Positions 7,301-48,773 of a stretch of DNA of 64,000 nucleotides are shown here, piece by piece. The stretch comes from Strigamia acuminata (lineage: Eukaryota): the NCBI GenBank assembly GCA_949358305.1, contig OX442314.1, positions 7,998,001 through 8,062,000 on the forward strand. The letters are read 5' to 3'. A model generated the notes under the pieces. It saw nothing but the letters and a program-made list of their open reading frames with translations. It was not told the origin of the DNA and searched no databases. Position numbers and translations under genes: made by a program. Numbering within the stretch: the first letter of the stretch is position 1; every line of letters begins with the position of its first letter.

Positions 7301-7905
7301 AAAATTTAATCGTTGAGCAAATTCCACGCGTGCTGCTGGTTTCTGTTAGAACAATTGTTTTGTTTGAATTTGGATATCTCTGCATGAAATAATTAAGTTT
7401 TTAAATAATCATTTTTTAAAAATAATTATTTTTTTACTTTTATTTTTACGCTGACCACTTCTTTTGTCAAATTAGTCGCTTTCCAAAGTTCATCCATATG
7501 GTAATCTGGGATTGTCATCATAATTTCCCATGTATTAAAACATTGGCTGGCTTTATGAGTTCTTTTCCAAAGTCTGTCCATTTCTTTTGTATTTCTATTG
7601 CAGATCATCAAGTTTGGTAGTTCTACATCTTCCGATTTACTCGTCACATCAACAACTGTTGGATAACTTAAGTAATGCTTTATTCTACCGTAAGTCTGAT
7701 AAGTGAGCATACACGTGCAAAATGAGAATAAAAGCAGCCAAAAAATGTGACGCTTGCTCCCACGATGATTGCTATTTATAAAATCATCCAAGCCGATTAA
7801 ATTGCATCTGAGGTTGTTTACATCATCCTTCAACAATTGGTGAATTGCCAAACGTAGTTTACTTAATCCTTGCCTGTTTCTTCTCATGAAAGAAGAATTC
7901 TGCAT
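4377..7905 (-). CDS. Double-domain DEG/ENaC gene copy A, exons 1-7; 3' part not resolved, possibly disrupted
   Basis: Exons 7438-7905, 7301-7379, 7150-7241, 6997-7089, 6281-6387, about 5443-6220 and 4377-4455. Exons 2-5 are the same size as in copy C. Motifs: SYPTVV, CRRPC, LLSDFGGNLGLFLGLS, then a second TM1. The exon 6 donor is shifted and a TAA follows at 5431-5433. Confidence 0.8.
4638..5289. mobile_element. hAT-type MITE rich in GGTAC/GTACC subterminal repeats
   Basis: TIR CAGTGTTGGGCA...TGCCCAACACTG; 8-bp TSD CCTAACAA at 4630-4637 and 5290-5297. Confidence 0.92.
6425..6975. mobile_element. MITE copy 2, in intron 4 of copy A
   Basis: TAGTGAGTTTGCGG...CCGCAAACTCACTA; reverse-complement match to 3448-3973; absent from the equivalent introns of copies C and D. 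Confidence 0.85.
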
Positions 7906-11070: not shown

Positions 11071-11682
11071 AGTGTATGGAAACACAATTAATTTAGTTTT
11101 TAAAGGATAATTAGGCAGTACATTCGTTTCGTGAAGTGCTACAGAACATTTGATAGCATTATAGAATTAAATACGTGTAATAACATTAAGGGATAATCTG
11201 GCTTATTTTGATTTTTTAAAATTTAAAATTTATATTTTTCTTGTAATAATTAAAAATAGAAGAAAAAATTAATTATGTACTACGCAAGAATTTAAATGTT
11301 TTATTATAAACAATTTTTATGTAGGCATCGTTTATTTGTGATAGCCTCACAGGCGCCCAATGAGAATAGAGCAGTGCTTTTAGATCGGAGGAATATCAGT
11401 AAATAGAAGAGCAAAATAAAAGAGCATACTTCTATAGATAGGCACCACCAGCAAGAATTCAATTGTAAACAAGTTCAACAATTACAATCTGTTGTATTTC
11501 AGTTAAAAATGTAACTTTTATACTACTATGTTTTCAACAATGTAATCAGAAAACAACATTATTTCAATGTGAGTGCATTAAAATAATTTTATGATTTTAT
11601 ATTCTTAAAATTTCAAATACGAAAATTGTTGCAACTGTGACTAAGATTTAAAAGATTTTGCATATTGATAGCTTTTCCCAAT

Positions 11683-12320
11683 TCATTTTTTATTGCTACT
11701 TTTAGAACCAAATCGAAAACTCTGATACCAATTATAAGTGTTTAAAATGCAAATATAGAACGACAGTAATGACATTCCCAAACCTAATCCTACAATGCTA
11801 CCGACATCGCTAAGCAATTGAGATACCGGGTATGCTTGTTGCTCTTCTATAATCTCTAAGTAAGTATCAGGGAATTGAAGAAGTATATGTGTTATAGATT
11901 TAAATAGAAATTTAGTCCCATGCAAACTAATTTTGTAAAAATTGTTTACGCATGGCAGTCTGCATTTGCATTGTTTTTGATTTGAGTCAAAAGCCTTTAA
12001 GTACATTAAATGAGCCGTAGTGATTTCCTTTGTTGTGTTACAAACTGGTAAATTCGATCTCCAAAAATAAGGTAATCTGAAACAAACAGCGATTTTGTGA
12101 ATAGGTTGACTGCTGAAAAGGTTAGATATTTTTTTAAATAAAGATATAGGTAGATTTTCTATTGATAAAATCGAAATTTGAGAAAAGTGAATTATATGAA
12201 CATAGCATACTTGCAGTTCAAAGTTTGGACAAAATCCTTTTTCATGCAAGCATTTTTACACTTGAAATAAGTATTTTTGTTCTCTTCACATGGATTATGC
12301 TTTGTATTTCTTCGTATAGT
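11683..12320 (-). pseudogene. DEG/ENaC copy B remnant, exons 10-11 only
   Basis: Exons 12211-12320 and 11683-12076, very similar to copy C (CKCRLPC, LLSDVGSIVGLGLGMS). Exons 1-9 were not found. The matching upstream region survives at about 23358-23575. Confidence 0.85.
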
Positions 12321-25599: not shown

Positions 25600-28500
25600 T
25601 CACCAGATCCTACTCCGATACCAATTATAAGTGTTTAAAATCCAAATATACAACGACAGTAATGACATTCCCAAACCTAATCCTACAATGCTACCGACAT
25701 CGCTTAGCAAATGAGATATTGGATATGCCTGTTGCTCTTCTATAATCTCGAAGAAAGTATCAGGAAATTGAACAACTATATATGTTACAGTAGATTTAAA
25801 TAGTAATTTAGTCCCATGTAAACTAATTCTGTAAAAATTGTTTATGCACGGCAGTCTACATTTGCATTGTTTTTGATTTGCGTCAAAAGCCTTTAAGTAC
25901 ATTAAATGAGCCGTAGTGATTTCCTTTGTCGTGTTACAAACTGGTAAATTCGATCTCCAAAAATAAGGTAATCTGAAACAAACAGCAATTTTGGATTGGA
26001 ATCGGATATTGGAATTGGAATTGGAAATCTGATTAGGATGTTGGAAGTTAAGAGAGTGATTTAAGATAATTTAATGATAAACTTGTGTCTACTTCAGAAA
26101 ATTGCGATTTTTTTAAAAAATTTTAGTACAAAAGATTTGAGGAGTAGTCATTTTTAGACTAAATAAATGCTGCTCTACAAGTTTACAATTGGAAATTTCT
26201 GTCTATCTCTAATGGTTTCCAAGATAATTTTCAATGACCTTGATGGAACATCCCAAGGCCAAATTTTGGGTCATTGAAAAATTGCCCCACCCAACTTTAA
26301 TATTTCACCATCATTGGATTAAATGCATTGTCAGCACTTTCAGAAATATTTCGTAGAGTTACAGATTTTTTTAACCATCCTGTATAAAAAGAAAACATTT
26401 AACTTAAGATGACTAAGATAAGTTGGATAGTACTAATTTGATGATGCTCTACAACTTTGTAATTGACTTTTTTGCTCTAACTTGATTGGTTTAGAAGTTA
26501 GCAAGTGAATAACCTTGAAAATGGCCTTCAAGGTCAAATTTGATGACATCATTGGATTGCTCTCACCCAACTTCCTATACGATCGCTTCATCAAAGTTGG
26601 CCTAGATGCAATTGCTGAGGAAATATTTGAGGGGAACAGACTTTTGTTTCACCCTGTATAAGCTTATTTGTTTAACTTCTTATTTTTAGATAAATGTAAT
26701 CATATTATTCAGTAATTTTAAAGTTAATAAAGATGTTCATTCATTTTAAACTATTTGTTCATTATTGCTGTATTACATTTTTACCCCTAGACATTAATTT
26801 AACAGTCAAATTCAAAGTGAAATATATGAACACAGCATACCTGCAGTTTAAAGTTTTGACGAAATCCTTTTTCATGCAAGCATTTTTACACTTGAAATAA
26901 GTATTTTTGTTCTCTTCACATGGATTACGCTTTGTATTTCTTCGTATAGTCTATTTCACACAATGAAAGCACATTAGTACATATTTACCAGGCAAGTACC
27001 ACATTCCTTCGAAGAAGAGGCTTTTATTCAAAACTGCAATCGTTCACCGCAACTTTGATTTCCGTTTTTAAAAAAAAAATATAATATTTTTGTGTATTTA
27101 ATGTAACGAACGTAACGTACGTTGAACTTTTGTTGCATTACATACAAAAAAATACCGTATTGTCACAATAATACGGTATTTTGCTCTCTCAGCCGTGGAT
27201 CTTAGTCGAGGGCGACTCTTGATCGAAGGAAAAGGGTATGTACAATATCTTTAATTTACTACCTTAACTGGTCGAAGAGTAACCATGTTTCCCGATTGAT
27301 ACTCTAAAGCCAAAGGTGTCACAATGTTAACTTCTTCTTCCAGGTTATTTAGGAAAACCTGAATATTAGTATAATTTAAACTTAGGTCTGTATACTGTAC
27401 ATGGTGTCTGATTATATTGTTAGGAAACGAGGTTTAACTAAATTAAATGGTGTTGTGGTACCTTTAGATTTTGGTCACAGACTTTTGAAAGAGATATATT
27501 TCTTAATTTAAGTAGAAGCTGAGCATCTCGAATGACTGATTTTTCTGAAAAGCATTTGAAAATCATAATTTGAAATGGCTTGTGAATTCTTAGAAATTAG
27601 ATTTGTAAATTACCTGCATTTATTCGTGTGCAGTTACCAAAAGGAAGTGAAATAGGATGCTTTGATGCGTTTAATGCTAATTTATATCCATAATGATACT
27701 AGAAAAACAATAATTTTCATTCTTCTATTTTTGTAAATTTACAGTACCATACTTATGTATACTGTATACCTCATTATCGATTTCAATTTTCTCATGAATA
27801 TTCAGTGTGTCCCATATTTCTGCCAGTGACAATTTGTTGTTGAACAATTGCCAGGGCGATATTTCATTACAAGTTTTCTTGGAGTGTTTCAGTAAGTGCA
27901 ATCTGGCTTCGTCCACGCCATCATTTTGTTGTTCGCCACATAGCGTAATTGACCGAAATTCTGTGTAGCGACGTTGATCTATTCTAACCATCTTTGTAAC
28001 CGGTTCATCAATGTAGTAGTTAAAACGAATGTGCAAGCAATATAATGTGAATCCTACGATCACAAATACCAACACAAACTTAAGTTTTTTTAAGACACCA
28101 AATGTCATGGTTTGCTCTTCATTCTCAATAACTTTCTTCTTGCATGTTTCGTACAAATAGTGGATCTTATAAATGGATCTTTTTTGGTGAATGTTAGTTG
28201 CAACATAATATAAATACCAAGTGATTTCAGGTAATGAAATTAATGATAGACCGAAAAACAGACCCAAGTTGCCTCCTAAATCTGACAGTAAAGCAATAAC
28301 GTCATAGATGTACCGTTCTTCAAACACACTGATTTTCTCATTAGTTATTGCTAAAGACACAGATATACTATTTTTATTGTCGCCTGTGCCTGTATCGGTA
28401 GATGGTGTAAACGTTATTTGATGACACGGACGTCGACATGGACATGAAGAAATTGGGTGAGTGGTGTCAATTACTTCACGCGCTCTACCGTATTGCACGA

Positions 28501-29721
28501 GTGTGTTGTTTGAACATTTACATAGTGGTAAATCTGTTTTTGTAAAGGGGAATCTTGCACAAAAAAAATTAAATGACGATTTATTTGGTTCTTGGTGTAC
28601 TAGTAACACCATCATAGTCTTACCTGCATGTTAGATGCTCTTTAAATTTTTTGGTTAGACAACTCCGATAGCATTCTCTAAATTTGTCTTCACTGGAGCA
28701 TTTATTTGTAGGTGAATTAAGAAATATGAACTAAAAAATAAAAATCAAATTAAATGGTGTCTAGTGGTTTTATAATTTTGGATAAAATTTTACTTTGTTA
28801 TAACTGAAATAAATTTTTGATGTTCCACCCAAAAATTGCACTCCTGGGCAATAGTGTTTCCCAAAATTATTGAACGCAAGGAAAAGCTAAGAATGAAAAG
28901 AAAACAAAATGAATAATAATTACAACCGTAATTATTGAAATTACCCAATGTGGCGCTGTAGGACAAATGTGATCATAATTTTTTTCCATTTTTACTGTCA
29001 GTACTTGTCCAACAAATGAGTCGCTAGAAGCTTTTGCTATGTAAATCGATGATAAAGTCTATTAAGTAGAAGGTGCTAAATATTGTGTGTGTAGTTACGT
29101 AATTGAATTGTCGAGCACATTCCTAATTCATAGCCAATTTCAATCAGAACAATTGATTTGTTTGAATTTCTATATCCCTGTAAAAATAAATTAGAATTTT
29201 TTCTTTCGATTTTTAAATACTTTTTTCTTTTATCTCTTTACTTTTAATTTGACGCTCACTATGTCGTTCGTCAAATTAGTCGCTTTCCAAAGTTCGTCCA
29301 CATTGTAAGTTGGGGTTGCCAAAAAGGTTTTCATCATGTGAAAGCATTCCCTGATTTGAGGTTTGAGGTTTACATGAGTTTTATTCCAAAGACTGGCCAT
29401 TTCTTTCGTATCACTATTGCATATCATCAAGTTTGGTAGTTCGACATCTTCCGATCTACTCGTTACATCAACAACTGTTGGATAACTTAAGTAATACATT
29501 ATCCTATCGCAACTCTGATAAGTGAGCAAGCACGAGCAAAATGAGAATAAAAGTAGCCAAAAGGTGTGATGCTTTGTCCAACGTCTTCTACTGCTTACGA
29601 AATCATCCAAACCGTCTAACTTGCATCGAAGTTTATTTTCATCCTCCTCCAGCAATCGGTGAATTTCCGAACGAATTTCAAATCTTTCCCTCCATCTTTT
29701 TACCAAACAATTGTTCTGCAT
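25600..29721 (-). CDS. Double-domain DEG/ENaC (ASIC/pickpocket-like) channel, copy C, intact, about 793 aa
   Basis: 11 GT-AG exons: 29242-29721, 29099-29177, 28945-29036, 28794-28886, 28624-28730, 27770-28553, 27614-27698, 27462-27544, 27263-27358, 26841-26950, 25600-25972. They total 2382 nt in an open frame. Two TM1/Cys-rich ECD/TM2 sets. An alternative upstream ATG lies at 29745. Confidence 0.9.
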
Positions 29722-32160: not shown

Positions 32161-33403
32161 TTGAGAGATGTGGGAATGCCGGCCGGAAAGCCCAGAAAAG
32201 CCATTCAGATTTCGCCAGAAGTGAATTATTAGTAAAAATGTGTCATTTTTTTCCTAAAAAATTTTTTAAAAATTGTTTATTTTAATTGTGGTACTAATAA
32301 TTATAAATAAATAATTGATCTATTCAACACTTCTTGTCTTTTACCATAAACAATCTTTTAAGGCAAATTAAAATGTTGGTGCAAAGAACTTGTTTTTGTA
32401 ATTTTCATCGTGTTTCAAACAGTCTACAACTTTTTCTTTTAACAGTTGTATATCGTTTATTTTCCTTAGATATTTTTCGTAATTTCGAATTTTTATGCGT
32501 GCTGTGTTGCAGGGAAGTTTTTAAGGAGGAGTTTGTTATTGCAATGCGATTTTATCTTTGCGCACTGTAATAAATCTCAGAATTGACACGTGGTAAAGTC
32601 ATTACAGATTTTATATTCCCCAAAACGAAACCAAAACTATCAAAAACATCCTACAAAGCAACAAAATGCACTAAAAACACACAATAAAAAACTAACAAAA
32701 ACATCCTACACTAAAAACACCAAAGCAACAACAAAAACAAAATTGATTTTTTAAATCACATCTTTGTAGTTGCCGTTTTATGACTTTTTGCTGACATAAC
32801 ATACCGGTATTCTTGTACTTGAATAACTTTACGAAAACCATATTTAATGGTCTTCTTTGTGGTCAAATCGACAACCCATTCTCAAATTCTGACGACTCTT
32901 ATACCAACTATAACTGTTTAAAATGCAAATGTAGAATGACAGCAATGACATTCCCAGACCTAATCCTACAATGCTACCGACATCGCTTAGCAATTGAGAC
33001 AGCGGATATTTCTCTTGCTCTTCCATAGTCTCTACGAAGTCATCAGATAATCTAATAACTAGGAATGTTATAACATTTAATGCATATTTATTCCCATGCA
33101 TGGTAGTTCTGTAAAAACTGTTTTCGCAAGGTTGTTTACATTTGCATTGTTTTCGTTTTGACTCAAAATTATTGAAGTACGTTAAATGAGCAATGGTAAT
33201 TTCCTTTGTTGTGTTACAAGATGGTGTGAGAATGATTAGACAACCGTTAGGCTTGAATGTCGTAACTAGACTGCTTGATTCATGATTGTTGCATATAGAA
33301 CCGATCTTGACCAGAACTGGCCGCCAGAGGGAGCTATCGCTCACACGACCCCTCCAACAAGATTGTCGTCCCCGACAATTATTATTACAAAACACTAGAT
33401 AAA

Positions 33404-35284
33404 TTATTTTCGTAGCTCGCTGGTCCCATGTTTTCCGTCTGATTGGCTTGCGCCACCATGCCAAACTTGGTTTGTTCCCCTTCGTGAATATTCATGGCTC
33501 GATTCGAATCCATTCACCTCGATCTCATCGTATTTCTCGTCGTACTCCTCGCCTTTCTCGTCGTATTCCTCGCCTTTCTCGTAATTCGCATCAACTTCGT
33601 CTGAACTAGCATCAACTTTGTTCGAATTCGTATTAAACTCTAGTTTCATCTTGCCTTCATCCATCTTCGACCTGTCCTCTTCCAATTTCGCCTCATTCGC
33701 ATCTCGATTCGTCTTATTTCTATCTTGATTCGTTTTAGTCGCATCTCGCTTCATCTCAGTCACATCTCGATTTACTTCATCCGCATCTCGATCTACTTCG
33801 TCCGCATCTCGACCCACTTCGTCCGCATCTCGATTTATTTCGCTCTTTTCGTCAAAATCGTTTTCGTTCTTGTCATCATTAGGTGCGTTCAATCTGCTAG
33901 TCGAAAGTCACTTAACTGACTTAACTGACTTTCAGAGGGCGGAAGTGACGATAATTACGTCACATTTTCACCAAGTAAAGTCACCTAAGTGACTTTCAGA
34001 AAAGTAACTGGAAAGTTCCTTTTCCACCTTTTAAAAGTGACTTATGTGCGTGCGCATGCGCATTGCACATTTAACAAATACAGTGGCAGCCATTTTGTTC
34101 TCGATGAACACGGTAAATTCACACGTGTGGCACACGGTAAATATACGTGTGGCACACGGTAAATATACGTGTGGCACACGGTAAATATACGTGTGGCACA
34201 CGGTAAATATACGTGTGGCACACGGTAGATTCACGTGTGGCACACGGTAAATTCACACGTGTGGCACACGCTAAATTCACGTGTGGCAATGCACGGTAAA
34301 TTCACGATAAATTCACGGTAAATTCACGATAAATTCACGGTAAATTCACGGTAAATTCACGGTAAATTCACGGTAAATTTGGCAAATTCATGGTAAATTC
34401 GGCAAATTCACGGTAAATGGAAATGGAAGTCTGGTGGTAAGTAAGTGCATTCAATGAAAAGTGACTTTGAGGAAAGTAAGGAAAGTGAAAGTCACTTCTT
34501 CTAACACAGATTGAACGCACCTATTGTCTATTTCTTCTTTTTCATCTAATTCTTCGTTGTTCTCGCCAAAGTCGTTGATTCGCGCATCGTCATTGCTGCT
34601 ACACGCATCACCATCGCTATCCAACGCGTCAATTTCACCGCTCCACCCATCAAATTCTAGTTTTATTGCATTTTTAACCAATTTCGTCTTGTCCTCGTCC
34701 ACTTTCGTCTCGTCTTCGCCTACGTCCACTTTTGTCTCGTCTACGTCCACTTTCGTCTCGTCCTCATCTACGTCCACTTTCGTCTCGTCTTCGTCTACGT
34801 CCACTTTCGTCTCGTCCTCGGTCTCCTGCTGCAAAATTGCCGCGTTTCGCGCGACCATCTGCTGCGTCAACGCCGCCATTTGCTGAACCAGCGCGTCCAC
34901 CGAAAAACTCGGCCCAGCTTCAGATTTGGTGTTCTCGAACATCCGCTGCATCAACGCCGCCATTTGCTGCAAAATTGCCGCGTTTCGCGCGTCCATCTGC
35001 TGCATCAACGCCGCATGATTACGAGCGCTATCCGCTGCTTCACGTCTCTTCTCCTGCTCCTGCCGAAATTTCTCCAATGCAATTTGTTCTTCCTCCCGAT
35101 CCGCCAACTCCTGATCTTCGTTATCCAACCGCAACCATATCAAAATCGACGACCGATCCAGATCCGTCGTGTCCCAACTTCGCCGATCCGCCTCCGCCTT
35201 TAAAACTGGATACGAAAATTGCCCCAACACGTCTCTATTGCACGACCTAAGCAGCATGTTCAATTCGCCTGACATAGTCTCCAC
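33404..35284 (-). CDS. Single ORF of the short-LTR element (about 411 aa reconstructed), split by a MITE
   Basis: 34523-35284 and 33404-33877 join in frame (EEIDN|DDKNEND). Helical N-terminal part, then acidic repeats (DETKVDV, RDADEV). Confidence 0.7.
33881..34522. mobile_element. MITE with 3-bp ATT TSD and internal 22-bp and 11-bp tandem repeats
   Basis: TIR AGGTGCGTTCAATCTG...CAGATTGAACGCACCT; CACGGTAAAT-based repeats at about 34108-34420. Confidence 0.88.
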
Positions 35285-37869
35285 AGTAGCTTGATTCTTT
35301 CCAACTTTGTCAACTTCTTTCCGTTATCTCCACGTGTCTTTAACGCAAATTTCCGAAACTTCCTTCTTTCTTTGTTTCCTTCGTCTTTGTCTCCAATTCG
35401 AACGTTATCTGCACGTGTTCTACGTATAACGCACGTCGTCTCCGTCTCCAATTCTCCGAAACTTTTCTGTTTCCTTCGTCTCCGTCTCCAAATTTCTCCG
35501 CAACTCGATTTTCGACAATGTTAAGCCCACGCGCTCTTCATCCAAATCGCCGTCATCAACTTCCAACTTCAACTTGCAACTAATTTCAACTCCTCAACAA
35601 CGTTTCAACTTTTCAACTACTTCTTCCCCAAGATCCTTTTTTTCGTCGACTGTGCCATGTGAGAATGATTAGACAACCGTTAGGCTTGAATGTCGTAACT
35701 AGACTGCTTGATTCATGATTGTTGCATATAGAACCGATCTTGACCAGAACTGGCCGCCAGAGGGAGCTATCGCTCACAGATGGCAAATTAGACATCTCTG
35801 CATAAGGCAATCTGAAACAAACAGTTGTATGGTAATATTCACAAAAGCAACCTCAGTAGGAAACAGAAAAGGCTAAGTATTTTCAAACAACAAATATTAT
35901 ACTACTAGTAATATTAACATACCTACAGTTACCGGTTTGAAATAAATTCTTTTTCATGATGCAAGCATTTTTGCACATGTAATAAGTAGATTTGTTTTGT
36001 TCACATGGATTACGCTTTGTATTTCTTTGTATAGTCTATTTCATCAAATGAAGTTTAGTTTAGTATGAGCAGGTGTGTTATTTGTTTAGTTTGTTACCTT
36101 GTATGCACGAAACACTATAGAGGTCACCCATCCATAATTTATAGCCAAAGGTGCCAAAATGTTAACATCATCTTCCAGATTATTCAGGTGTGACGGTTAC
36201 ACTGTCATGCACTTTGCTATTTTTGGACGTTTATTTTATCCATAGATGGCGCTAGTACAATTTAGCGGTAATTTCGAATTTCGGTTATTTTTGAAGGAAT
36301 AAAATATAAATTATCATTTATATTTTATTCTCCCTCAAGTTTAAACAATTATTAAACATTTTTAGATGTGTTAATATTAGCTGATTTGTTTGTCACATAA
36401 TTCTATTGAATTATGTGCAAATTTCACACCTGGTGAAGTCACCATTCACCACCCACTGTGAGTTGGACTCCTTTCGGATTATAGTCAAAGGGACTTAATC
36501 CAAAGTGTGTCCTGCGTATCCAGTTCCTGTAGTGGACCTAGTAGAAGACTATGTCCTGGGTATCCACTTCCTATAGTCTAGGATTGGATGGATTTAGGTG
36601 ACCAGTGATCCCATTGGATCACTGGGCAGCCCATTCTTCACACCGAGCATATATTCCCTTGCAAAACGGATTTGGCTTGCTCTCTTGTTGGTGGTCTGTT
36701 CCTGACACCACTTGAACCGGGTTTGGTGGACTTAGGGCCACTTGGGTGAATTTAGTTCATCTTGTTGCACTTAGGGGCAATGAATAGCTGTAGCTATGGA
36801 AAAGTAACATTTATCTATTTTAATATTCATTCTCAGAATTCCAATACAGGCCGGGTACAAAATACTTGATATTTAGTGTAAGAATCTAGAGTGAGTAGAA
36901 GACTCACAGACACACTGCCCGCCTCTTCATACCAACATTCCGTTGAAGAATTAAATGTAGAATCTAGAGTGAAGCGATTCACAGACGCATTATTGGGGTA
37001 ACCGATGTGGAGTAATTTCCCGGTTACTCTCCCGCCAGCCAGAACCGACGTGGAGTAATTTCCCGGTAATGGATAACCTTTCCTGTGAGAAACTTCTGAT
37101 TCAATTCGTTGTTGGTTTGATGGAACATTTAAGTTTGACTTAGATGTTGATTGCACTCGGGGCAAAAATAGCTCGGCGCTATTTTAATATATTATTTATT
37201 TTCACAGTTTTAGTTAAGTTTGTGACTCTAAAATATCATGATTAATTTCATAGAATTAATATGAATATTTATTCTCACATTGTTACATCTCGCGGTAATT
37301 ATTGATTTCAATAATTATCTGCGATGCGATGTGTGTGACGATACAGAAAAGTCAACCGCACCTCTCGGATATAACCCACCCAGCCTAACCATTTACACGC
37401 CTTTTAGAACCAAACCCCGGACCATTTAGAAGCCAAAGCCATTCATAGATGACATCTTTTACGTCACAGCAATAAGACCGTTACAAATTCTTATTGCATG
37501 ACTGAAGCCTTCAAATGATATTATTTCAGGGCTTTTGCCAAATAACTGTATAGTTTAACTTATCGTTATTTTAGCCACTTGTAGGCATAATATTTATATA
37601 AGTTTCAAACCGGAATAAATGTTATATGTTTTGAGAAAACATCAGGTTTGCATATTTTACACTTTCACACAGATAGTTCACACTTTAGTTTAGCAATTGC
37701 TATCTCCAGAAGGTAATCGTCACACGTGGAGGTTCCACCGAGATAGGTTGCAATTTTTGAAGTGAACTCTGTGATCTAAGTGTAAATTTGAAAAGTGACT
37801 TTTAATTATTCTATGTAAATATTATAATTACAAAGTTTCCGAATTTTTTCCGCAAAAAATTTATCTATA

Positions 37870-38454
37870 CTCGAGTAGCATTCAAAAAGCAGGTTTACAA
37901 AGTCTGCTCCCATTCGTCAGTTTCAAGGTCAGCCAGTTTACTACTAACTCCAGTCTGTAGGAGAAGTAGTTTTAGTTTTTATTTATTGTTGGGCTTGTTA
38001 TGACTAGTTTTGTTAATGTTATTTTGATTTTTTTTCATAAAAAATGTTATTTCCATCATTAAAATGAAGTTTTACACATTAAAAAATGTCAAACTCATGT
38101 TTGTTGTGTTTATTGCTTACATCGTCTGGAAAAAAATATATTTTTGAACTATTTATTGGTTACTCAGTCTGGAGCCTAAACAACTTTTGAATTATTTATT
38201 GGTTACTCAGTCTGGAGCCTAAACAACTTTTGAATTATTTATTGGTTGCTTTGTTATGCCGTTTAGTAAAATATAATTATGAAGGGCAACAGATATTGCT
38301 TCAACTTGTGGGCAGACATCTTTGTTTAACCTTGACAATGTACAGACATTGTAATCGATGTGTTTTGGGTCTACTTTTCTGGATCACTACACTCAGTAAA
38401 CTGGCGACCAATGGGAGTAGACTTTCTAAACCTGCTTTTTGAATGCTACTCGAG
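37870..38454. mobile_element. Tc1/mariner-type MITE
   Basis: TA|CTCGAGTAGCATTCAAAAAGCAGGTTTA...TAAACCTGCTTTTTGAATGCTACTCGAG|TA. Confidence 0.85.
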
Positions 38455-38894
38455 TATAGTTCTTGTTCATTCGTTCTTTCAAAAAATCCTTGTTATCTTT
38501 TGAAAAATGTCTTAGTTTGAATTTTGTTGATTATTTTATGTAACTATTATAATTGGAAAATCTCGAATTCTCTACGAAAAATCTACTTCTGTTTTGATTA
38601 GATTTTTTCAAGATATTTTATTATATTTTGGAAATTTCGAAATTATGAATTTTTTTTAATCAAGAAATTTGACTTATAAAATTCTTGTTGTATTTTGAAA
38701 TTGTCTGAGACCAAATCCTCTGATTATTTTGCTAATTCATTCTAATCAAGAAAGTTACCAATTTAATTGTTTTCTAAAAATCTACTGTGGATTCTATTAA
38801 GTTTTTCAAAATATATATTTCTGTTATATTTTGAGAAATCTCGAAACTACGAATTTCGACGCTAAAATGGATAAAAAAATTTGGAAATAAAAAC

Positions 38895-40025
38895 TGTCAC
38901 GGCCCGTGTTTCCTACGCGTACAGTTTACGCATTGTTAACCCGTGTTTGTTCCTATTAAACCTAATTTGTGATTCTCCTACCTTTGTTGTTTTGTTTATG
39001 TTTGATTCGTGAGTTTTCCTCATTTTCCTTCTATCTTATCTCTTACTCTCTCCTAACTTTCTCTTCATTCTCTCACTTTTCTCTTATCTACTCCTAGTTT
39101 TTCTTCTTTAGTTTATGATTTTGATGCAAGTCTATTTGCATATCTATTCTGGTCAGTACGCGTCGGCGTTAGTCATACACTTAGTATGCACCGACTGTAC
39201 TGATTGGCTCTTGACTCTTCCGTGATTGGTCAAGCTTGGTTGAGTCCAAGTTTACCTCTCACCCTATTTTTCCTCTTTTGCTTCAGTTGATCTCAGTATC
39301 CCGAACGCGTAGGTGCTCCTTTGGAGCCGGTGCTCATGGCTGAGGTTTAACTCCGAAGCTCACTCGTAGCTTTGCATTCGCCCTGGAATTCTGCAACACG
39401 GTTTCAGGCTTTCATTTCATTTCGCGTGTTAACTCACGGTTTTACACCACTCGTTCACCATTTGTTTTCCTGCTCCTTTTTGTTCATGTTTTATCGCCGT
39501 GACGCGTTATCCAAGGCCAAACAGGATTTGTTGGCCATAAGTTCGAAGTTTGTGTCGTTTATTTCGCGTGTGCGTGCATCTAGCTTAGTTTAGCCGCCTG
39601 CCATTTGGGCTTTAGCTTTAATTAAGCATTAAGTCAGGTTTAGAGTTAGGTTTAGGGCCCGTGCGTTGTATAAGCACGAGTAAATTGCCCATCCTCGTTC
39701 AGACTCGACAGTTTGGGGTTGCTTATGAGCCACTACGAGACGTGCATTCGTTTGCCTTCGTGTGAAAACACGATTGTTGGCGGGTCACGCGTTGGGTTTT
39801 GGTTCAGACGCGACTACCGGACATTCTGTCCCCGAGTTTTACAGCGCGGGATACCCGGCCACAAATAAATATTAGTGTGGTGCACAGTATCTGAGAGTGT
39901 GTTAGCTGCCACTTCCTGCGCACATTCGATTTACGGCAGGTACGAAACTACCAGGGTGTGTGAATTTACTGTTTCGCGGCGTCTTTCAAACGCTTCTAAA
40001 CCACCTAGACTCGCGATCCATCACA
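38895..40025. mobile_element. Solo LTR
   Basis: TGTCAC...ATCACA with 4-bp TSD AAAC on both sides. Confidence 0.75.
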
Positions 40026-40629
40026 AAACAATAAAATTTTATTTTCAAGTTGGGTAAAACTTGACTAGTTTTGTTCTATTGTTCTGTTCAATGTTAGGTG
40101 TTGTAGTAAAATATGAGATCTATGAATACGCATTTAAGATGCAATTCTTGATTTCTACCTCAAGGAGGGATTTAAAGGGATGAAGGAGGAAATCACCCGA
40201 GGCAAGGCCATGGGAAAGTGCATTAAATTATTCTGCTGTTTGAATTAAAGAGTTTTAAAAGGAAGTAGGTCATTGACTTCACCTGCTTCTATCACAACTG
40301 GTTTTTTTGGAACGTTTCATTTTACTGGAGGGAAAATGAATAAATGACGTGATTTGTTTACATGTACTTTGTTGGCAAAATCACACATATTAACCATTTT
40401 TAGGAAAGTGGGAGGTAATTAAAGTGAAAGTGGGGGTAAATCGTATGGACTTCCAATGACAGTGGGCAACATTTGCCATTGTTTAAAGTTTTCTGAGGGT
40501 ATTGGAAGTGGGGGTTACGGCAAAATTAAAAGTGGGGGTAATTTTAAACGGTTTTTCTCGAGATGGTGAGTCGAATGCTATATTGCACGTATGGGTCAGG
40601 GTGTTTGATCACATGTTGAATCTGCACTT

Positions 40630-41013
40630 GGTGAAATTTTGGCTATGTCCAACACGCTTCATTGGTGAAATTTTGGCTATGTCCAACACGCTTTGTTGGT
40701 GAAATTTGGCTATGTCCAACACGCTTCGTTGGTGATATTTTGACTATGTTCCACAAGCTTGGTTTGATATTTCGGCTATGTTCCACAAGCTTGGTTTGAT
40801 ATTTTGACTATGTTCCACAAGCTTGGTTTGATATTTCGGCTATGTTCCACAAGCTTGGTTTGATATTTTGACTATGTTCCACAAGCTTGGTTTGATATTT
40901 TGACTATGTTCCACAAGCTTGGTTTGATATTTTGACTATGTTCCACAAGCTTGGTTTGATATTTCGGCTATGTTCCACAAGCTTGGTTCGATATTTTGAC
41001 TAAGTTCCACAAG
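40630..41013. repeat. Minisatellite: about three ~34-bp units, then about nine 32-bp units (GATATTTTGACTATGTTCCACAAGCTTGGTTT)
   Basis: Directly visible; there are no unique spacers. Confidence 0.93.
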
Positions 41014-43488
41014 TTTCTGTATTTATATTTGTACTTATTTCTTATTTCATGTATTTATATTTGCAATTATTTCTTATTTTAATTAAAATTCAATTCATTT
41101 GTAAATAAATGTATTAAGATTTTTTAATAAAAAATAAATAAATAGGAAATGTAAAATGTGTAATTCAATTTATTTGCAGATAAATGTATTAAGATTTTTT
41201 AATAAAAAAGTCAATTGAAATGTTTAATAGGAAATGTAAAATGTCTAATTCATTTCATTTACAAATAAATGTATTAAGAATTTTTACATTTCCTATTAAA
41301 CATTTCAATTGACTTTTTTATTAAAAATTATCTTTATTTGACCTAAAAACAATTTCATTTTAAATAAAAATTCAATTGCCCCTGGGGAAATTTTTTTTAT
41401 TCACAAATGAAATGTGACCTAGTTGAAAGACCAGTTTAATTGCAAAAGAGTTGAAATGTATTAACACAATTTAAAATGAGAATTCATTTGATTTTTTTGT
41501 CCTGTGTGTTGTTATTAATTCCTTATTTTAATTCTATTTACAAAAAAAAATAAAACTTATTTTTAAATAAGAAAAAGTTAATTGAAAGAAAGTTTTTATT
41601 TGTTAATAGATATTAAAGTTGGAATTTATTAAACCAATTTAAAAATGAAATGGAATTAGAATTAAAACTATCCATTAGAAAAAATCAAATGAATTCTCAT
41701 TTGATTCTTTTTAATTCCATTTTAACTTTTATAATTAATAATTTTCATTTACAAATAAAAATTTTATTCCTTCTAAGTAATGGAACTTTCCAAAACCAGC
41801 TGTGTTAAAAGTAAGCCATGTGACAGCATGTAATATATCTTGTAGGAAAAACGGATATGTGATCAAACAAACAAATTGATAAACATTTATCAAAACAAAA
41901 AAAAACAAAAAAAAAATGTTAAACAGTCGAATGAAAATATTTTTTTCCTCACCAGCAATTAAATTTCCCCCCCGAAGGCTTTTGCTCTTTAAAAACAAAA
42001 ATAGCCTTTAGAGATTTTTTTTAATGAGTCAGAAAAAACAGGTTTTCAAAGTGACTCAATCAGAAATAAATGAATAATAAATTGTAAAGAAAAATAATTT
42101 TATTCAGCTTTTAATTAAAAATTCTTTTACACATTTTATTTGTTTTTCAAAATTTTTTTTTTACATTGACAAACGAGTTAGCAGAACAGGGGGCACTGCA
42201 ATGATTACATACGTCACAATTAAACAAGACACTGTTAAATGAATGGCGTAAGAATGCTCTAGTATGTTCATAAAACTCCATTTTTATAAACATTCCTTCT
42301 CTTCATCAAAAAAATCTATATCCTTAATTTTCTTGCCCGGAATAATTTGATACAACTGCCTTATGTGTACTCTTGTTTCTGAGTTGAGAGAATCATGTAT
42401 TATTCTTGCTCTTCTTTTTATTATTTTGCTTAGTTCAGGAAATTGTCCATCAATGCGAAATACAAATGCAAAATTATTTATATCTGTAATTTCAGCCCCC
42501 CATCTACTTATAAGTTCAAAGATTATTTGCAGTAATATTTTCTCACTTTTTTCATAAGTTGCACAAAAAAATTCCATGTTATTCAGCTGAGAAATAATTT
42601 ATTTTTAATTGAAAATTTAATTAAAATGATGTTTACATACTATATTTTTAATTTATTTTTAATTGAAAATTTAATTAAAAGCAATTTTATTTATATTTTT
42701 AAAAATTTATTTATTTATTATGCATTGCCGGATGAGTCACGCTGCTTTAATATAATTACATGGTCACGTGTTTTGAATTAAATCAGGTGTTTATTCACAT
42801 ATTCATTTTTATTTCCAGATTTAATATGTGAAATATAATTTGTAATTACACCCAATTAATCAAAAGACTATTTCCTTATTCAGAGAAAAAACAGTAAAAC
42901 TAACAATATAAATATTATTTTAAAAACTTGTGATAATTAATTACATAATGCCGCATTATATATATATATAGAGTAGCATTTAGCCGAATAAATGACTTAT
43001 TTCAGCCAATTCCTGGATTTCGGCGATAGTTACATTGTCGTGTATGTATTTGACGTGTTCAATATTCTCACTGGAAAATCTACCAAGTTTCTCCACCAGA
43101 GTTTGAATCTTGATCTGAAATGCCACAAAAGTAACGAATCGGTTCTCTGATCTATTGAGCCTCCATAATTAACCAAAAGGAATAATGATAAATGTTTCAA
43201 AATTATTTTCCTTTCATCGGTAGTTTTGTTCTGTTGGAGTTCAAAGAGATACATTTTAATTCTTTTCTTTCTCAAATTGAAGTGAATATAATAATGTTGC
43301 TTTTTTTATATATAGAAAATTTTTGTTACGGTTTCATTTTTGATTTGATACGGACTTTAACACATGCCCGTGCTTGTTTGCAGACTTTCCGTAAGGTTTT
43401 GTGCGAATCTTTGTTGATTTCAAATTAGGATCGTTTTAACTTCTTAAATAATTTCATTTTTTTGTGAAAAATGGAAATTGGGTTTACT

Positions 43489-43908
43489 TTACAACAACTC
43501 GAGATTATTCATTCCTCGAATGATTTTAATGATTGTATTCTGCCTGAGATTAAGATTGGCTGCTAAATAGAGCGCAAAGAGGCAAAACATCCCGCAAGAA
43601 TCCTCTTTTGTCAACGAATACACTTCTTTTGTAGCATAATCTAGGGTAACGTCTCTTCCGACAAAATCAATGATCTCTTTAGGTGGAACGTTTCCCAAAT
43701 TATCAAAGTATATGCCTCTGTCATTGCAAAGATACAAGCTGACCCAATGGGTACCACCACCCGTCGATGGGTCTAAATTGATGACGAAGCTTTCATTCTT
43801 GCCCCGGTGATTCGCGAGCGGTTTCAAGCAATCGATGGGCAACACGTTGTTGAAGTGAGCGATACGTAGTTTATTCTTCGCCCAGTTGTAAATTTCCACG
43901 TTATTCAT
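43489..43908 (-). CDS. Maverick/Polinton adenain-like cysteine protease
   Basis: VINLD...GTHWV...YFD..G..PP...CGMFC. Its ATG overlaps the integrase stop (ATGA). Confidence 0.85.
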   Translation of the reverse strand: MNNVEIYNWAKNKLRIAHFNNVLPIDCLKPLANHRGKNESFVINLDPSTGGGTHWVSLYLCNDRGIYFDNLGNVPPKEIIDFVGRDVTLDYATKEVYSLTKEDSCGMFCLFALYLAANLNLRQNTIIKIIRGMNNLELL

Positions 43909-44235
43909 TTTTTAATGTCGATGAGATCATCCACCCATGAATTATGCTTCTGATTGTAGCCGACCCATTTCACTAGGTACTTCCATGATCCATCGCTGTT
44001 TTTCTTTTTTCTAATGACTTTCTCGATCAAGTAGGGATCATCTACCCTGGTTTCAGTTTTTTGGAGTTCTTCACGGTAAAAGGAACCTTCGATCGATTCT
44101 CCCAAACTGTCTTTCAATTTGAAAATTGGAGGTTCATACGTCGTGTCCACTTTATCAATTGTAAAGATTTCATTAGTCCAATTTTGCAAAAACCCTTTGT
44201 CAAATATGGATTTGGATTTGGAAATACGCACTCGG
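43905..44235 (-). pseudogene. Maverick/Polinton integrase C-terminus with chromodomain, 5' truncated by an LTR fragment
   Basis: VRISKSKSIFDKGFLQNWTNEIF...GSFYREELQK...YLIEKV...YLVKWVGY..HNSWV. Confidence 0.88.
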
Positions 44236-46798
44236 CAGTCAAATCCATCCAATCCCAGATCATAGGAAGTGGATACTCAGGACATAGTCTTCTACTAGGT
44301 CCACTACAGGAACTGGATACGCAGGACACACTTTGGATTAAGTCCCTTTGACTATAATCCAAAAGGAGTCCAACTCACAGTGGGTGATGAGGGGTGACTT
44401 CACCAGGTGTAAAGTTTGCACATAATTCAATAGAATTATGTGACAAATAAATCAACTAGCATTTAAACATCCAAAAGTATTTAAAAGTGTCTAAAGTCGC
44501 AGTGGAATAAAATATAAATAGTAATTTATATTTTATTCACTCAAAAATTGTCGAAATTTGAAATTACCGCTAAAACGTATCAGCGCCATCTATTGGTGAA
44601 ATAATCGTCCTATACTAGCAAAGTGTATGACAGTGTAACCGTCACAAGTTTCAAACCGGAATAAATGTTATATGTTTTGAGAAAACATCAGGTTTGCATA
44701 TTTTACACTTTCACACAGATAGTTCACACTTTAGTTTAGCAATTGCTATCTCCAGAAGGTAATCGTCACACAGGAATAACTGAAAATATAATATTCTTTA
44801 AAAATTTTATTCTTGGATTTTTTTTTTTTTTCATCTTAGAACCAAGATTAAGTTTTTCAATAAATAAAAATGTCTATACGTAGATTGAATTCACAAATCT
44901 GGAGTTCAAACATTTTTTTATGCCTTTGCATTTTGAAAATTTTGACTGCAAACATTTTTGTGAACTTTAAGCTTATATACTGCTATACTAGTATTACCTT
45001 TAAATGCTGGTCACATGCTGTTGGAGGGAATAAATTTTCAAATTTAATCATGAGGTAAGCGGTTAAGTCGATTGATTTTTCTGAAAAACATTGAAACAGT
45101 CAAAATTATGGCTGGCTTTTTTACGCCGCAGAAAAAAATTTCAATAACTTGTTCATTTTCATTGCAAATGAGGCACAATTAATTAATTCCTATAAATTGC
45201 CCAAATGTGTGCTCTCAGAAATTAAATGTGTTAAATACCTATGTTTATTCGTGAGCAATTACCAAAAGAAAGTGGAATCGGATGCATTGATATGTTTAGT
45301 GGTGTTTTATATCCATATATTTCCTACAAGAAAAATAATTTGATGTGATTGTTTTTGGAATATAACATACGGTAGTATACTTTATTCTCAATATCAATTG
45401 TGTCATGTATGTTGAGTGTTCTCCAGATTTCTTCCAGCGACAATTTGTTGCTGAACAATTGCCAGGGCGATATTTCATTGCACATTTTCTTGGTGTGTTT
45501 AATTAAGTGTAATCTGGCTTTGTCCATGTCATCATTTTGTTTTTCACCACAGACCGTGATCGACTGAAATTCTACAAAGCGACGTTGATCTATTCTAACG
45601 ATTTTTGTTACCAGTTCATTAATGTAGTATTTGAAACGAATTTGCAAGCAATATAAAGTGAATCCTGCAGTCACAAATACCAGCACAAACTTAAGCTTTT
45701 CTAAGATTTTATCTGTCATCGTTTTCTCTTCACCGGCCAAGACTTTCTTCTTGCATGTTTCATACAAATAGCGAATCTTATTGTCGGGCCTTTTTTGATT
45801 TGGGTTTGACGCAACATAATGTAAATACCAAGTGATTTCAGGTAATGAGATTATCGACAGACCGAGAAACAGACCCAGATTGCCTCCTAAATCCGAAAGT
45901 AGAGCAATAACATCATAGGTGTACCGTTCTTCATACACGGTGATTTTGTCATTAGGTATTTCTAAAGATATAGATACAGTATTTTTATCATCTGCTATGT
46001 CATTATCACTGAACGGTGTAAAAGTTAATTTTTGACATGAACGTTGACATAGACAATCGGAAATTGGTTTTGTATTTTCCATCAATTCAAGTGCAATATG
46101 GTATTGTTCGTGTGTGCTGTTCGAACATCTGCATAGTGGTAAATCGGTTTCCGTAAAGGGGAATCTTTTAAAGGAGATATTTAATTAATGTTTTTGTGAT
46201 ACCATCTCATATATTGTTACCTGCATTTTAGATGCTTTTTAAATAGTTTCGATAGACAATTTCTGTAGCATTCTCTGTATTCGTCTTCACTGGAGCATTG
46301 ATTTATAGGTGAATTAACAAATATAAACTAAAAATCAAAACAGAATAAAGTGATCCATACATAGTAATTTTTAAGTTATTGGGTAAAATTGTACTTTCAT
46401 ATAACTCAAATAAATTTTTGTTGTTGCACCGGGATATACTACAGTTACACCAAACTGTCTTTCAAAATTTGAGAACGCAAGGATAATCTAAGTGTAAAAA
46501 GAGAATCAATAACAGTCACACAAGTGTTGTTTATTAATATTACCTTATAATAAGCTTTAGGGCATATGTTAGACATTTTTTTCATGGTTAATGTCAGTAG
46601 TTCTCCAAATAAATATTTACTAGAAGCTTGTGCTGTAACAATAAATGATATGTATAGATAGTGCTGAGTTTTTGAATGTTTGTTTGTAGTTACGAAATTG
46701 AAATGTCGAGCATATCCCATATTTACGGATGGATTCTGTCTGAACAATCATTAAATGTGAATTTGAAAATTTCTGCAAGAAATAAAGGCCATAAATTA

Positions 46799-47596
46799 TG
46801 TTTAGACATAAAACTATGTCTAGGAGGACACAAACCATGCAGCAACACGACAATAACAACAACAAATGCCACAGTGGAAAACAATTCCCATCAATAGATG
46901 GCAACAACAACAATACCACAACAGAAAACAATTTCCCATCAAGAGATGGCAGTGACTTTGTTGGAATGATAAGGTCTAAGGTTAAATATAAGTAGAAAGT
47001 ATCTTATACCTTACTTATTTAATATTGTACGTGAAAGTCATAGGTTGTTGTGACCCCAAATGTCCTCATGATATTTGGATAAAATTTGTTAATATTATGT
47101 AATAATTTTAATGTATTTATTTCGCTCTTGCCTATGCTACAGTATCTATCGGCTATTGGCAAAAATTCATTACAGCTACCATGGTAACGATACTGCCAAA
47201 ATTAGAGGATTGCTATGGCTAGCCCCTATTGAGCACCGTTGCTAAGTACGAAGTGTGCCAGACACATCGGATAAATCCTCTACCGGACCTCCTCGACGAA
47301 GGGCTACAGACTGAACACCTACCGCCTCTGACCACGTTCGATCGAAGACCGATCCTGCTCCAGAGCTGACAGTATTTTGTGAGTTCCTGCGAACAAGAAG
47401 ACTGGATTCATCCACGGCGCTGTACTGCCGGTTGTATTCGATCTTCCACATAGAATTTCCAGCTTCAACTCGTGGTTCAAACTCACGTTTCTCCACCGGC
47501 CTAGCTCCCTATCTACCTATCTAGCCACTGTTCTGGCTCCTTAGCCAAGCAAACACCGTGAAGTCGCCAGATTTTACACCCTTTGTGTCTTACACA
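46799..47596. mobile_element. Possible solo LTR in intron 1 of copy D
   Basis: TGTTTAGACA...TGTCTTACACA termini and internal short direct repeats; the TSD is not clean. Confidence 0.4.
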
Positions 47597-47608
47597 TTGA
47601 GCGGCAAT

Positions 47609-47836
47609 CAGGGACGTCTTTACACTTTTCAGCGCCCTGGGCTAATAAAACTCAGGCGCCCTTTGCCCAGCACTTTTCTGTGGCCGGCGCCCTTCTGTAC
47701 CCATCAAGCCTCTGTGCCCATCGAGTTTCTGTGCCCGGCGCCCTTCTGTGCCCATCGAGCCTCTGTGCCCGGCGCCCCCCTGTGCCCGGCGCCCCTGGGC
47801 TGCAGCCCAGTTAGCCCAATGGTAAAGGTGGCCCTG
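47609..47836. mobile_element. hAT-type MITE
   Basis: CAGGG...CCCTG ends with 8-bp TSD GCGGCAAT; a related end lies at about 21440-21537. Confidence 0.88.
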
Positions 47837-48773
47837 GCGGCAATTCGAGGGGAAACAACACTCGTTGTTTCTTTTAAGGCCAAATAATCTATAGAAGACC
47901 TGAAACAGCATTCAACTGGTTCCGCCACTTGAATTCCGGGACTGATTTAATTTAACTCATTGTTTGGAATATCCAGGAATGCAGGAAGATGTTAAAAAAA
48001 ATTTAAAAGATGTATTTGATACATTTACACTTTTTTAACCCTATTATTTATCCTAGTGTACTGTGCTTCTTTGAATCTTTTATTGTTATAAATTTTAAAA
48101 AGACGTGTTTTTTGTTTTTACCTTTATTTTTGCGCTTACTATTTCTTTCGTCAAATTAGTCGCTTGCCAAAGTTCTTCTATCTCGTATGTTGGATTTGCC
48201 ATCAGAGTTCTTACCATGTTAAAGCAGCCGGTGTGGATTTTTCCATAAGTTTTATTCCAAAGTCTGGCCATTTCTTTCGTATTGGTACTACAAATCTCAA
48301 AGTTAGGCAGAATGACATCTTCTGATCTGCTGGTCACGTCGACAGCCGTAGGATAACTTAAGTAATGCATTATTCTGTCGTAAGTCTGATAAGTGAGCAT
48401 GCACGTACAAAATGAGAATAAAAGTAACCACAAGACGTGATGCTGTCTCTGATGTCTTCTACTGCTTACGAAATCATCCAAACCGATTAACTTGCATCGA
48501 AGTTTGTTTGCATCCTCCTCCAGCAATCGGTGAATTGCCGAACGTAGTTTTCTCATCGAATAATTATTTTGCATATCTGTGACGCTATTGGACAAAAACT
48601 TATGATCAAGGCTTCATTGGCCCCAGTGGATTACTTAGAAATGTTCAAAGTTGAGGTTGTCTTAAATTATTATCCGTCGCAAAAAGAGAACCTGTTTACT
48701 TTTCTTTTTGGTACTTTGCTTACCAACCTTATTTACACTGGTCATTATCACAGAATCATTATCTGCATACAAG

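What the first reader, a model, noticed from the sequence alone, without database searches (positions are those of the whole stretch)
25600..29721. Natural tandem-fused (two-subunit, 4-TM) DEG/ENaC channel
Seen: the spliced ORF of about 793 aa has two complete DEG/ENaC modules. The single 784-nt exon 27770-28553 encodes TM2 of module 1 (LLSDLGGNLGLFFGLS), a basic linker of about 40 aa, and then TM1 plus the 'YYIDEPV...SITLC' start of module 2, with no stop or intron. The same open junction is in copies A (5443-6220) and D (45381-46164), so this is not a gene-model merge. Established: DEG/ENaC/ASIC subunits have two TMs and assemble as trimers. Inference: a covalent dimer does not divide into a trimer, so it would need a single-domain partner (2+1), exclude one module, link neighbouring trimers, or be cleaved. 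I cannot tell whether this architecture has already been described.
Basis: partly seen in the sequence, partly recalled or inferred. Interest (0 to 1): 0.92.

Follow-up and report, generated by a model that had tools for sequence, protein, structure and literature searches.

The report
Naturally fused two-subunit ENaC channel gene
This gene, likely from a soil centipede, joins two sodium-channel (DEG/ENaC) subunits into one selection-preserved reading frame, so its predicted protein likely fills two of the three places of a normally three-subunit channel; database relatives with two or three joined subunits suggest such fusions arose several times in arthropods.

Summary
Observation confirmed. 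Eleven GT-AG exons (29721-25600, minus strand) give a 793-aa frame with two complete DEG/ENaC modules and four hydrophobic helices. Intron phases repeat exactly (0,1,0,0,2 twice). The TM2-linker-TM1 junction lies inside one 784-nt exon and is open in three window copies. The 40-codon linker has no indels and dN/dS 0.15-0.36.

It is not a one-off. 27 of 85 retrieved proteins carry the junction; 18 are Strigamia maritima gene models. First and second modules form separate clades, pointing to one old fusion with position-specialised modules. Module 2 lacks the pre-TM1 loop and usually replaces a gate glycine. An AlphaFold2 model of a complete S. maritima relative has pTM 0.68 and matches the centipede channels BRTNaC1 and PDPNaC1. 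Separate fusions gave three-module models in S. maritima and a shrimp.

Most likely mechanism (inferred): the tandem occupies two adjacent positions of a trimer, completed by a single subunit. In-frame skipping of five exons could supply that subunit. No transcript, protein or assembly evidence was obtainable. Ten literature searches found no report of natural concatemeric DEG/ENaCs.

The parts
29242..29721 (-). Copy C exon 1: start codon, N-tail, pre-TM1 loop region (D-G at the HG position), TM1 of module 1 (29565-29494), start of ectodomain
28624..29177 (-). Copy C exons 2-5 (29177-29099, 29036-28945, 28886-28794, 28730-28624): module 1 ectodomain; introns 1-5 have phases 0,1,0,0,2
27770..28553 (-). 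Copy C exon 6, the fusion exon: module 1 thumb/palm end, TM2 (28309-28205), 40-aa linker (28204-28085), module 2 TM1 (28084-28016) and ectodomain start
28085..28204 (-). Linker, 40 codons, no indel among A/C/D, dN/dS 0.15-0.36; predicted helical at low confidence
26841..27698 (-). Copy C exons 7-10 (27698-27614, 27544-27462, 27358-27263, 26950-26841): module 2 ectodomain; introns 6-10 repeat phases 0,1,0,0,2
25600..25972 (-). Copy C exon 11: module 2 thumb/palm end, TM2 (25725-25621), stop; AATAAA at 25569, about 30 nt after the stop
4377..7905 (-). Copy A: exons 1-7 in frame (fusion exon 6220-5443); exons 8-11 not found in the window
11530..12320 (-). Piece B: exons 10-11 only (module 2 tail), 87% aa identity to C; no front part found in the window
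32845..48574 (-). Copy D: exons 1-11 (fusion exon 46164-45381); read across its two insertions it gives a stop-free 796-aa two-module frame
36189..44770 (.). 8.6-kb insertion in exon 9 of copy D, 4-bp target-site duplication, inverted repeats near its ends
33225..35778 (.). 2.55-kb insertion in exon 11 of copy D, identical 121-bp direct repeats, 5-bp target-site duplication

Best explanation
Two neighbouring DEG/ENaC genes fused long ago into one gene whose open reading frame encodes two complete modules, and the protein is likely made as one four-helix chain that is predicted to fill two adjacent positions of a three-subunit cation channel, likely completed by one single-module subunit. Shown in the sequence: the gene structure, the single-exon junction, purifying selection on both modules and the linker, and the split of first and second modules into two clades. 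Inferred: the last exon of gene 1 merged with the first exon of gene 2, losing the stop and most of module 2's N-tail, including the re-entrant loop. Fusion would fix stoichiometry and order, so the two positions could specialise: module 1 kept a canonical pore helix, while module 2 changed the lower-gate glycine. The third subunit would be a single-module paralogue, or a 406-409-aa chimera made from the same gene by skipping five exons. By analogy with BRTNaC1 and PDPNaC1 the family is likely sensory (chemical, pH or heat); this is untested.
For: Gene model and repeated phases. ASC hits. dN/dS by NG86: linker 0.15-0.36 with all three upper bounds below 1; module 1 0.49-0.56; module 2 0.42-0.61 among A/C/D. 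No stop after module 1; no donor-like or acceptor-like site by my pattern scan falls in C's linker; the linker Met of A/C/D is absent from four S. maritima relatives. 27 of 85 stored proteins have a TM2-to-TM1 junction; 18 are named S. maritima. From the TM2 aspartate to the post-TM1 tyrosine is 88-90 residues in C and seven relatives, including one only 28% identical. IQ-TREE: M1 9 of 9 one clade (96/97), M2 9 of 9 (93/92); a separate duplication for the window's subfamily is rejected, p-AU 5.7e-8. AlphaFold2 of T1JD34 (791 aa, 31 rows, no templates): pLDDT 72.3, pTM 0.68, four TM helices. Two independently placed halves would be expected to cap pTM near 0.5 (my inference), so a defined M1-M2 packing is predicted. 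Fold match to BRTNaC1 (Z 21.2) and PDPNaC1 (Z 20.1); PDPNaC1 was solved as a trimer (PMC12714832 section 9). TM2 position 3' is Gly in 24 of 24 M1 rows, 15 of 17 single modules, and 1 of 9 M2 rows; that position is the lower gate of PDPNaC1. All five homologous skips are in frame. Engineered two-subunit ASIC1a fusions gave currents in oocytes (PMC4529235 passages).
Against: Nothing here shows a transcript, a full-length protein or an assembled channel. The S. maritima and shrimp proteins are predicted models whose exons I could not view, and some are visibly mis-joined (T1JEH2 has a duplicated N-part). The structure model is of a relative only about 25% identical to C; its linker (392-421) is below pLDDT 50, and its packing may reflect likeness to solved trimers. 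No single-module partner was identified, and all three copies in the window that include the junction region are of the double type. In the larger FastTree (67 rows) the position split was imperfect: T1ITL7 module 2 grouped with module 1, and one single module fell among M2; the IQ-TREE set used 33 of those 67 rows and left out the two singles involved. Several dN/dS intervals for short regions include 1 (N-tail, M2 TM2, comparisons with B). The engineered ASIC fusions also showed smaller bands, so their currents may come from cleaved products.
Confidence: 0.55

Rival explanations
1. Tandems assemble without a single subunit: two chains make one trimer with one module left outside, or left-over modules seed neighbouring trimers, giving linked pairs or a lattice of channels.
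For: All copies with a junction region in the window are double and doubles dominate the close relatives. Module 2's pore helix is less uniform than module 1's (mean pairwise identity 0.49 vs 0.65 over 15 residues), as expected if it is sometimes outside a pore.
Against: Module 2 keeps D0', G2' and G10' in all 9 rows and is under purifying selection like module 1. The model predicts a defined M1-M2 packing. Single-module relatives exist in S. maritima (T1ITG4).
Confidence: 0.2
2. The chain is a polyprotein: it is cut in the cytoplasmic linker, and the two modules then act as ordinary subunits made in a 1:1 ratio.
For: The linker is basic and partly low-confidence in the models. Engineered ASIC fusions yielded single-subunit bands.
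Against: No invariant cleavage-like motif across the family alignment. Linker length is held tightly in the closest relatives. A freed module 2 would lack the N-terminal loop that lines the lower pore in ASIC1 (PMC7308080 passages).
Confidence: 0.1
3. Two tandems form a four-module pseudo-tetramer, as two-pore channels do.
For: Two divides four; one paper argues for ASIC1a tetramers at the cell surface (PMC4529235).
Against: The closest solved relatives have three chains per entry. Natural three-module relatives fit a trimer, not a tetramer.
Confidence: 0.07
4. The fused frame is not the working product: the locus makes single-module proteins by exon choice, or the fusion is an assembly or annotation artefact.
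For: Five in-frame skip routes exist. Database multi-ASC models can be merges (P0060, a beetle model with repeated partial domains, looks like one).
Against: Every skip route drops exon 6, yet exon 6 and its linker are under purifying selection. The junction is in three window copies and in a DNA contig of a paralogue about 80% identical that bridges it without gaps (record 4).
Confidence: 0.05

Closest known systems
BRTNaC1 (Scolopendra subspinipes mutilans heat receptor; PDB 8YMR/8YMW; PMC9974506)
   Same: Best sequence and fold match (profile E 4e-41; Z 21.2); compact DEG/ENaC module; centipede.
   Different: 431-aa single module with two TMs; about 18-19% identity; has an HG motif. Heat gating not tested here.
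PDPNaC1 (Scolopendra proton-gated channel; PDB 9JF7; PMC12714832)
   Same: Second-best match (E 1e-40, Z 20.1). Lacks the knuckle domain; the tandem model shows strands without helices at that place in both modules.
   Different: 421-aa homotrimer subunit with Gly at the lower gate; module 2 of the tandems mostly has Ser or Asn there.
Heterotrimeric DEG/ENaCs (ENaC alpha-beta-gamma; ASIC2a/3 1:2, PMC10329638)
   Same: Unequal subunits sharing one pore, the arrangement inferred here.
   Different: Separate genes and chains; stoichiometry is not fixed covalently.
Engineered ASIC1a concatemers (PMC4529235, PMC10329638)
   Same: Head-to-tail subunits in one chain; reported functional in oocytes.
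   Different: Laboratory constructs with added flexible linkers; here the fusion is natural, old, and has a short conserved linker with module 2's N-tail deleted.
Multi-repeat tetramer-type channels (two-pore channels, K2P, Nav/Cav; from my own knowledge)
   Same: Internal duplication of a channel subunit followed by specialisation of repeats.
   Different: There the repeat number divides the symmetry; two does not divide three. The three-module relatives found here would be the true analogue of Nav/Cav.

Membership tests
DEG/ENaC superfamily (each module) | Pfam ASC PF00858 above cut-off | tested here: met
   Exons 1, 6 and 11 score 44.5, 57.7 and 47.4 bits against a cut-off of 23.6
DEG/ENaC superfamily (each module) | Two TM helices flanking a large ectodomain | tested here: met
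   Hydropathy of C; helices 38-72, 359-411, 423-452, 755-790 in the T1JD34 model
DEG/ENaC superfamily (each module) | Palm/thumb/beta-ball fold with cysteine-rich thumb | tested here: met
   Thumb cysteines in both modules of C; relative's module 2 aligns to BRTNaC1 at Z 21.2. The listed rows covered module 2, not module 1.
DEG/ENaC superfamily (each module) | G/S-x-S filter in TM2 | tested here: met
   G-L-S (385-387) and G-M-S (771-773) in C; some relatives have Cys or Thr at the third place in module 2
DEG/ENaC superfamily (each module) | Pre-TM1 His-Gly motif (typical, not universal: DEGT-1 lacks it, PMC8536179) | tested here: not met
   Module 1 has D/I/T-G at the aligned place; module 2 has no such segment, except in T1JF12 and T1IT41, whose longer linker keeps a similar one
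Canonical DEG/ENaC subunit (whole chain) | One module, two TMs per polypeptide | tested here: not met
   Two modules, four TMs; hence filed as a variant architecture, not as an ordinary subunit
DEG/ENaC superfamily (each module) | Trimeric assembly | not testable with these tools
DEG/ENaC superfamily (each module) | Cation conduction, amiloride block | not testable with these tools
   Needs electrophysiology
BRTNaC1/PDPNaC1-type centipede sensory channels | Closest solved relatives, knuckle-less ectodomain | tested here: met
   strands 319-332/337-355 and 714-726/733-739 with no helix between
BRTNaC1/PDPNaC1-type centipede sensory channels | Orthology, antennal expression, heat or proton gating | not tested
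   Their sequences were not in my tree; no RNA data

The most novel reading that the evidence does not exclude
DEG/ENaC channels have repeatedly evolved natural concatemers, as voltage-gated channels did. Geophilomorph centipedes have a large two-module family that builds hard-wired asymmetric 2+1 channels, possibly supplying the third subunit from the same gene by five-exon skipping. Centipedes and shrimps independently have three-module genes that encode a whole pseudo-trimeric channel in one chain.
Probability: 0.45. Interest if true: 0.92.

Novelty: new variant of a known kind. Interest (0 to 1): 0.82.

Why it matters
DEG/ENaC, ASIC and pickpocket channels are described as trimers of separate two-helix subunits; joined subunits have been laboratory tools. 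A natural, old, selection-preserved two-subunit chain does not divide into three, so it gives a direct test of how these channels set stoichiometry and whether pore positions can specialise (the trimer-versus-tetramer claim of PMC4529235 included). Natural three-module chains would be ready-made single-chain channels for position-specific mutagenesis. It also warns annotators: multi-ASC models that pipelines tend to split as merges can be real, which changes receptor counts in centipedes and crustaceans.

Tried and rejected
Whole genome: none held. Sequencing runs: no RNA holder listed; the runs laid were contigs with introns in place, so splicing was not tested. Organisms B and C of the same study laid 0 records on exon 6 at 80% likeness (no proof of absence). 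Summed contig depth over TM2 reached about 10,500-11,000 in X1 against 80-170 for single contigs, with 33-34 contigs at those places; this hints at tens of paralogues but is no copy number. Fold of exon 6 alone with 7 rows was poor (pLDDT 39.5) and used only for helix hints. ESM Atlas gave only single-ASC clusters. The metagenome scan gave 2 loci from 59 pattern matches, both ending in a stop after TM2. Earlier scan findings: nothing by sequence or place; the word hits were tandem clusters of separate genes. Rejected: internal start at the linker Met (not conserved); hidden intron in the linker; recent lineage-specific duplication; one common origin of all multi-module proteins (p-AU 1.7e-69; long branches in play); P0060 and P0018 as junction evidence (look mis-modelled). 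The profile scores are circular (profile built from the same proteins); only their coverage is used. Literature: 10 searches listed no report of natural fused DEG/ENaCs; several returned mostly unrelated papers. A 2020 panarthropod chemosensory survey cited in PMC8438182 was not held, the BRTNaC1 structure paper was not read, and no supplements were opened; S. maritima DEG/ENaC annotations there may bear on novelty.

Full report
OBSERVATION. Comparing the three copies base by base fixed an 11-exon minus-strand gene at 29721-25600. All ten introns are GT-AG, eight are 58-103 nt, and the spliced frame is 793 aa. Retaining nine of the ten introns meets a stop inside the intron; intron 3 is 58 nt and would shift the frame. 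Pfam ASC passes its cut-off on exon 1, exon 6 (two stretches) and exon 11. Four hydrophobic segments are present. Exon 6 carries TM2 of module 1, a 40-aa linker, TM1 of module 2 and the next strand, with no stop; it is equally open in copies A and D. An AATAAA follows the final stop by about 30 nt.

ORIGIN. Introns 1-5 have phases 0,1,0,0,2 and introns 6-10 repeat them at matching protein positions. The two modules are only 20-25% identical. The simplest reading (inference) is an old tandem duplication in which the last exon of gene 1 merged with the first exon of gene 2. Copy D reads as a stop-free 796-aa double frame once two insertions with target-site duplications are passed over; the identical 121-bp repeats of one suggest it is recent. 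For A only exons 1-7 are in the window; B is a module 2 tail.

SELECTION. Pairwise NG86 estimates among A, C and D: module 1 0.49-0.56, module 2 0.42-0.61, module 1 TM2 0.06-0.15, linker 0.15-0.36 (upper bootstrap bounds 0.41, 0.91, 0.91). The linker has 40 codons in all three copies, while orthologous introns differ in length. Substitutions alone would keep it stop-free in under 1% of simulations. Intervals for the N-tail, module 2 TM2 and the comparisons with B mostly include 1. In DNA contigs of two public runs, 501 records were laid on exon 6 at 80% likeness; four indels were listed: a 6-nt deletion, a compensating -1/+1 pair, and one frameshift. One contig about 80% identical bridges the whole linker without gaps, and two more cover it with 25-26 nt to spare on one side. 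These runs may include the window's own source.

FAMILY. The only longer word-index hit for exon 6 was Strigamia maritima T1JEH2, 57% over 97%, so the window likely comes from a related soil centipede (inference). A full HMMER scan gave 83 hits. Of 85 stored proteins, 27 have a clear TM2-to-TM1 junction: 18 are named S. maritima models, one is the shrimp Halocaridina rubra, and eight were not looked up. T1JD34 (791 aa) and T1ITL7 (805 aa) are complete doubles. In an IQ-TREE of 33 modules, chosen from the 67 in a FastTree, first modules form one clade (96/97) and second modules another (93/92). A separate duplication for the window's subfamily is rejected. The 67-row FastTree agreed except for two rows, and the two singles involved were not in the smaller set. 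So one old fusion diversified to about 25% identity while keeping both positions.

OTHER FUSIONS. A younger S. maritima clade (T1IZL2, T1IU28, T1ITG7, T1IL99) has very similar modules, groups with a single-module protein (100/100), and includes models with at least three modules. H. rubra KAK7028032.1 (1244 aa) has three modules. Unnamed Logan proteins P0034 and P0086 (1029 aa on contigs of 3405 and 4541 nt) and P0069 (725 aa on 2392 nt) have three TM2 blocks with a shortened middle module; the 3405- and 2392-nt contigs leave little room for introns. Their outer modules pair with those of the shrimp protein, on long branches. One origin for all multi-module proteins is rejected. I could not view the DNA of any of these.

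STRUCTURE. The spliced window protein was analysed in scripts only; the AlphaFold2 model is of T1JD34 with 31 aligned rows: pLDDT 72.3, pTM 0.68, four TM helices, linker below pLDDT 50. A pTM that high for two equal halves suggests a defined relative placement (inference; likeness to solved trimers may drive it). Best folds are BRTNaC1 and PDPNaC1 of Scolopendra, also the best sequence hits. PDPNaC1 is a knuckle-less trimer with gates at Asp372 and Gly375 (PMC12714832, passages and section 9). BRTNaC1 is a 431-aa antennal heat receptor (PMC9974506, parts 1-2 of 5). The modules are asymmetric. The gate glycine is kept in 24 of 24 first modules but in 1 of 9 second modules, which keep D0', G2' and G10'. 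Module 2 has lost the pre-TM1 segment that forms the re-entrant loop in ASIC1 (PMC7308080 passages), except in two relatives with longer linkers.

MECHANISM. Shown: a fused frame under selection, with position-specific modules. Inferred: translation as one chain (about 0.9), adjacent packing in one channel (about 0.7), completion by a single subunit (overall 0.55). Single-module relatives exist in S. maritima. The repeated phases also make all five homologous skips (donor n to acceptor n+6) in frame, giving 406-409-aa chimeras with module 1's TM1 and module 2's TM2. That follows automatically from the duplication and is no evidence of use. Engineered ASIC1a dimers conducted in oocytes, with smaller bands present (PMC4529235 passages); ASIC heteromers can have fixed 1:2 ratios (PMC10329638 listing and passages). 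Rivals are tandem-only or linked trimers (0.2), cleavage (0.1), pseudo-tetramer (0.07), and non-expression or artefact (0.05).

NOVELTY. Ten searches of the held library found no description of natural multi-module DEG/ENaCs. Passage searches in PMC8438182 and PMC5203786 found no 'fused' or 'fusion'; the ENaC passages of PMC7067487 do not mention such proteins; PMC5952958 does not treat ENaCs. The S. maritima models sit in UniProt as uncharacterised proteins. Subscription papers and supplements were not seen. Verdict: a real, apparently undescribed architecture of a known channel family; interest 0.82, limited mainly by the lack of transcript and assembly evidence.

Noticed in passing
P0007 (T1IU28), P0010 (T1IZL2); Strigamia maritima: Gene models with at least three DEG/ENaC modules in a young clade separate from the window's family; candidate single-chain trimers.
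   Followed up: partly
P0050 (KAK7028032.1, Halocaridina rubra); P0034, P0086, P0069 (Logan contigs): Three-module DEG/ENaC proteins outside centipedes; the Logan ones nearly fill their contigs and have a shortened middle ectodomain.
   Followed up: partly
P0033 (T1JF12), P0076 (T1IT41): Doubles whose longer linker keeps a segment resembling the pre-TM1 re-entrant loop; possible less-derived state of the fusion.
   Followed up: partly
window 30790-32160 (+): Intron-free cullin ORF covering about two thirds of the Pfam Cullin profile (E 1.5e-76), then a stop; likely a truncated retrocopy, on the opposite strand next to the channel gene's start.
   Followed up: partly
window 36189-44770: Insertion in copy D with inverted repeats near its ends; holds short ORFs with a chromodomain (43908-44276) and a weak adenovirus-type protease match (43492-43911, just under the cut-off), suggesting Polinton-like remnants; a 126-bp exact repeat at 37600 and 44646.
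   Followed up: partly
window 1-2961, 13333-19836, 20462-21370, 52982-60237, 63447-63998: Copia, Bel/Pao (634-bp repeats, 99% identical), a reverse transcriptase fragment, a Gypsy-like and another Copia retrotransposon surround the cluster.
   Followed up: partly
window 50643-50714 (-) and 50978-51622 (-): A tRNA-Met gene and an ORF with a weak ankyrin repeat match.
   Followed up: no
window 26000-26760: Intron 10 of copy C contains a very high-copy repeat (summed contig depth above 100,000), also at 21734-21892.
   Followed up: no
P0060 (Callosobruchus chinensis CAH7720558.1): Three TM2 blocks with repeated partial domains; looks like merged tandem pickpocket genes rather than a true fusion.
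   Followed up: no
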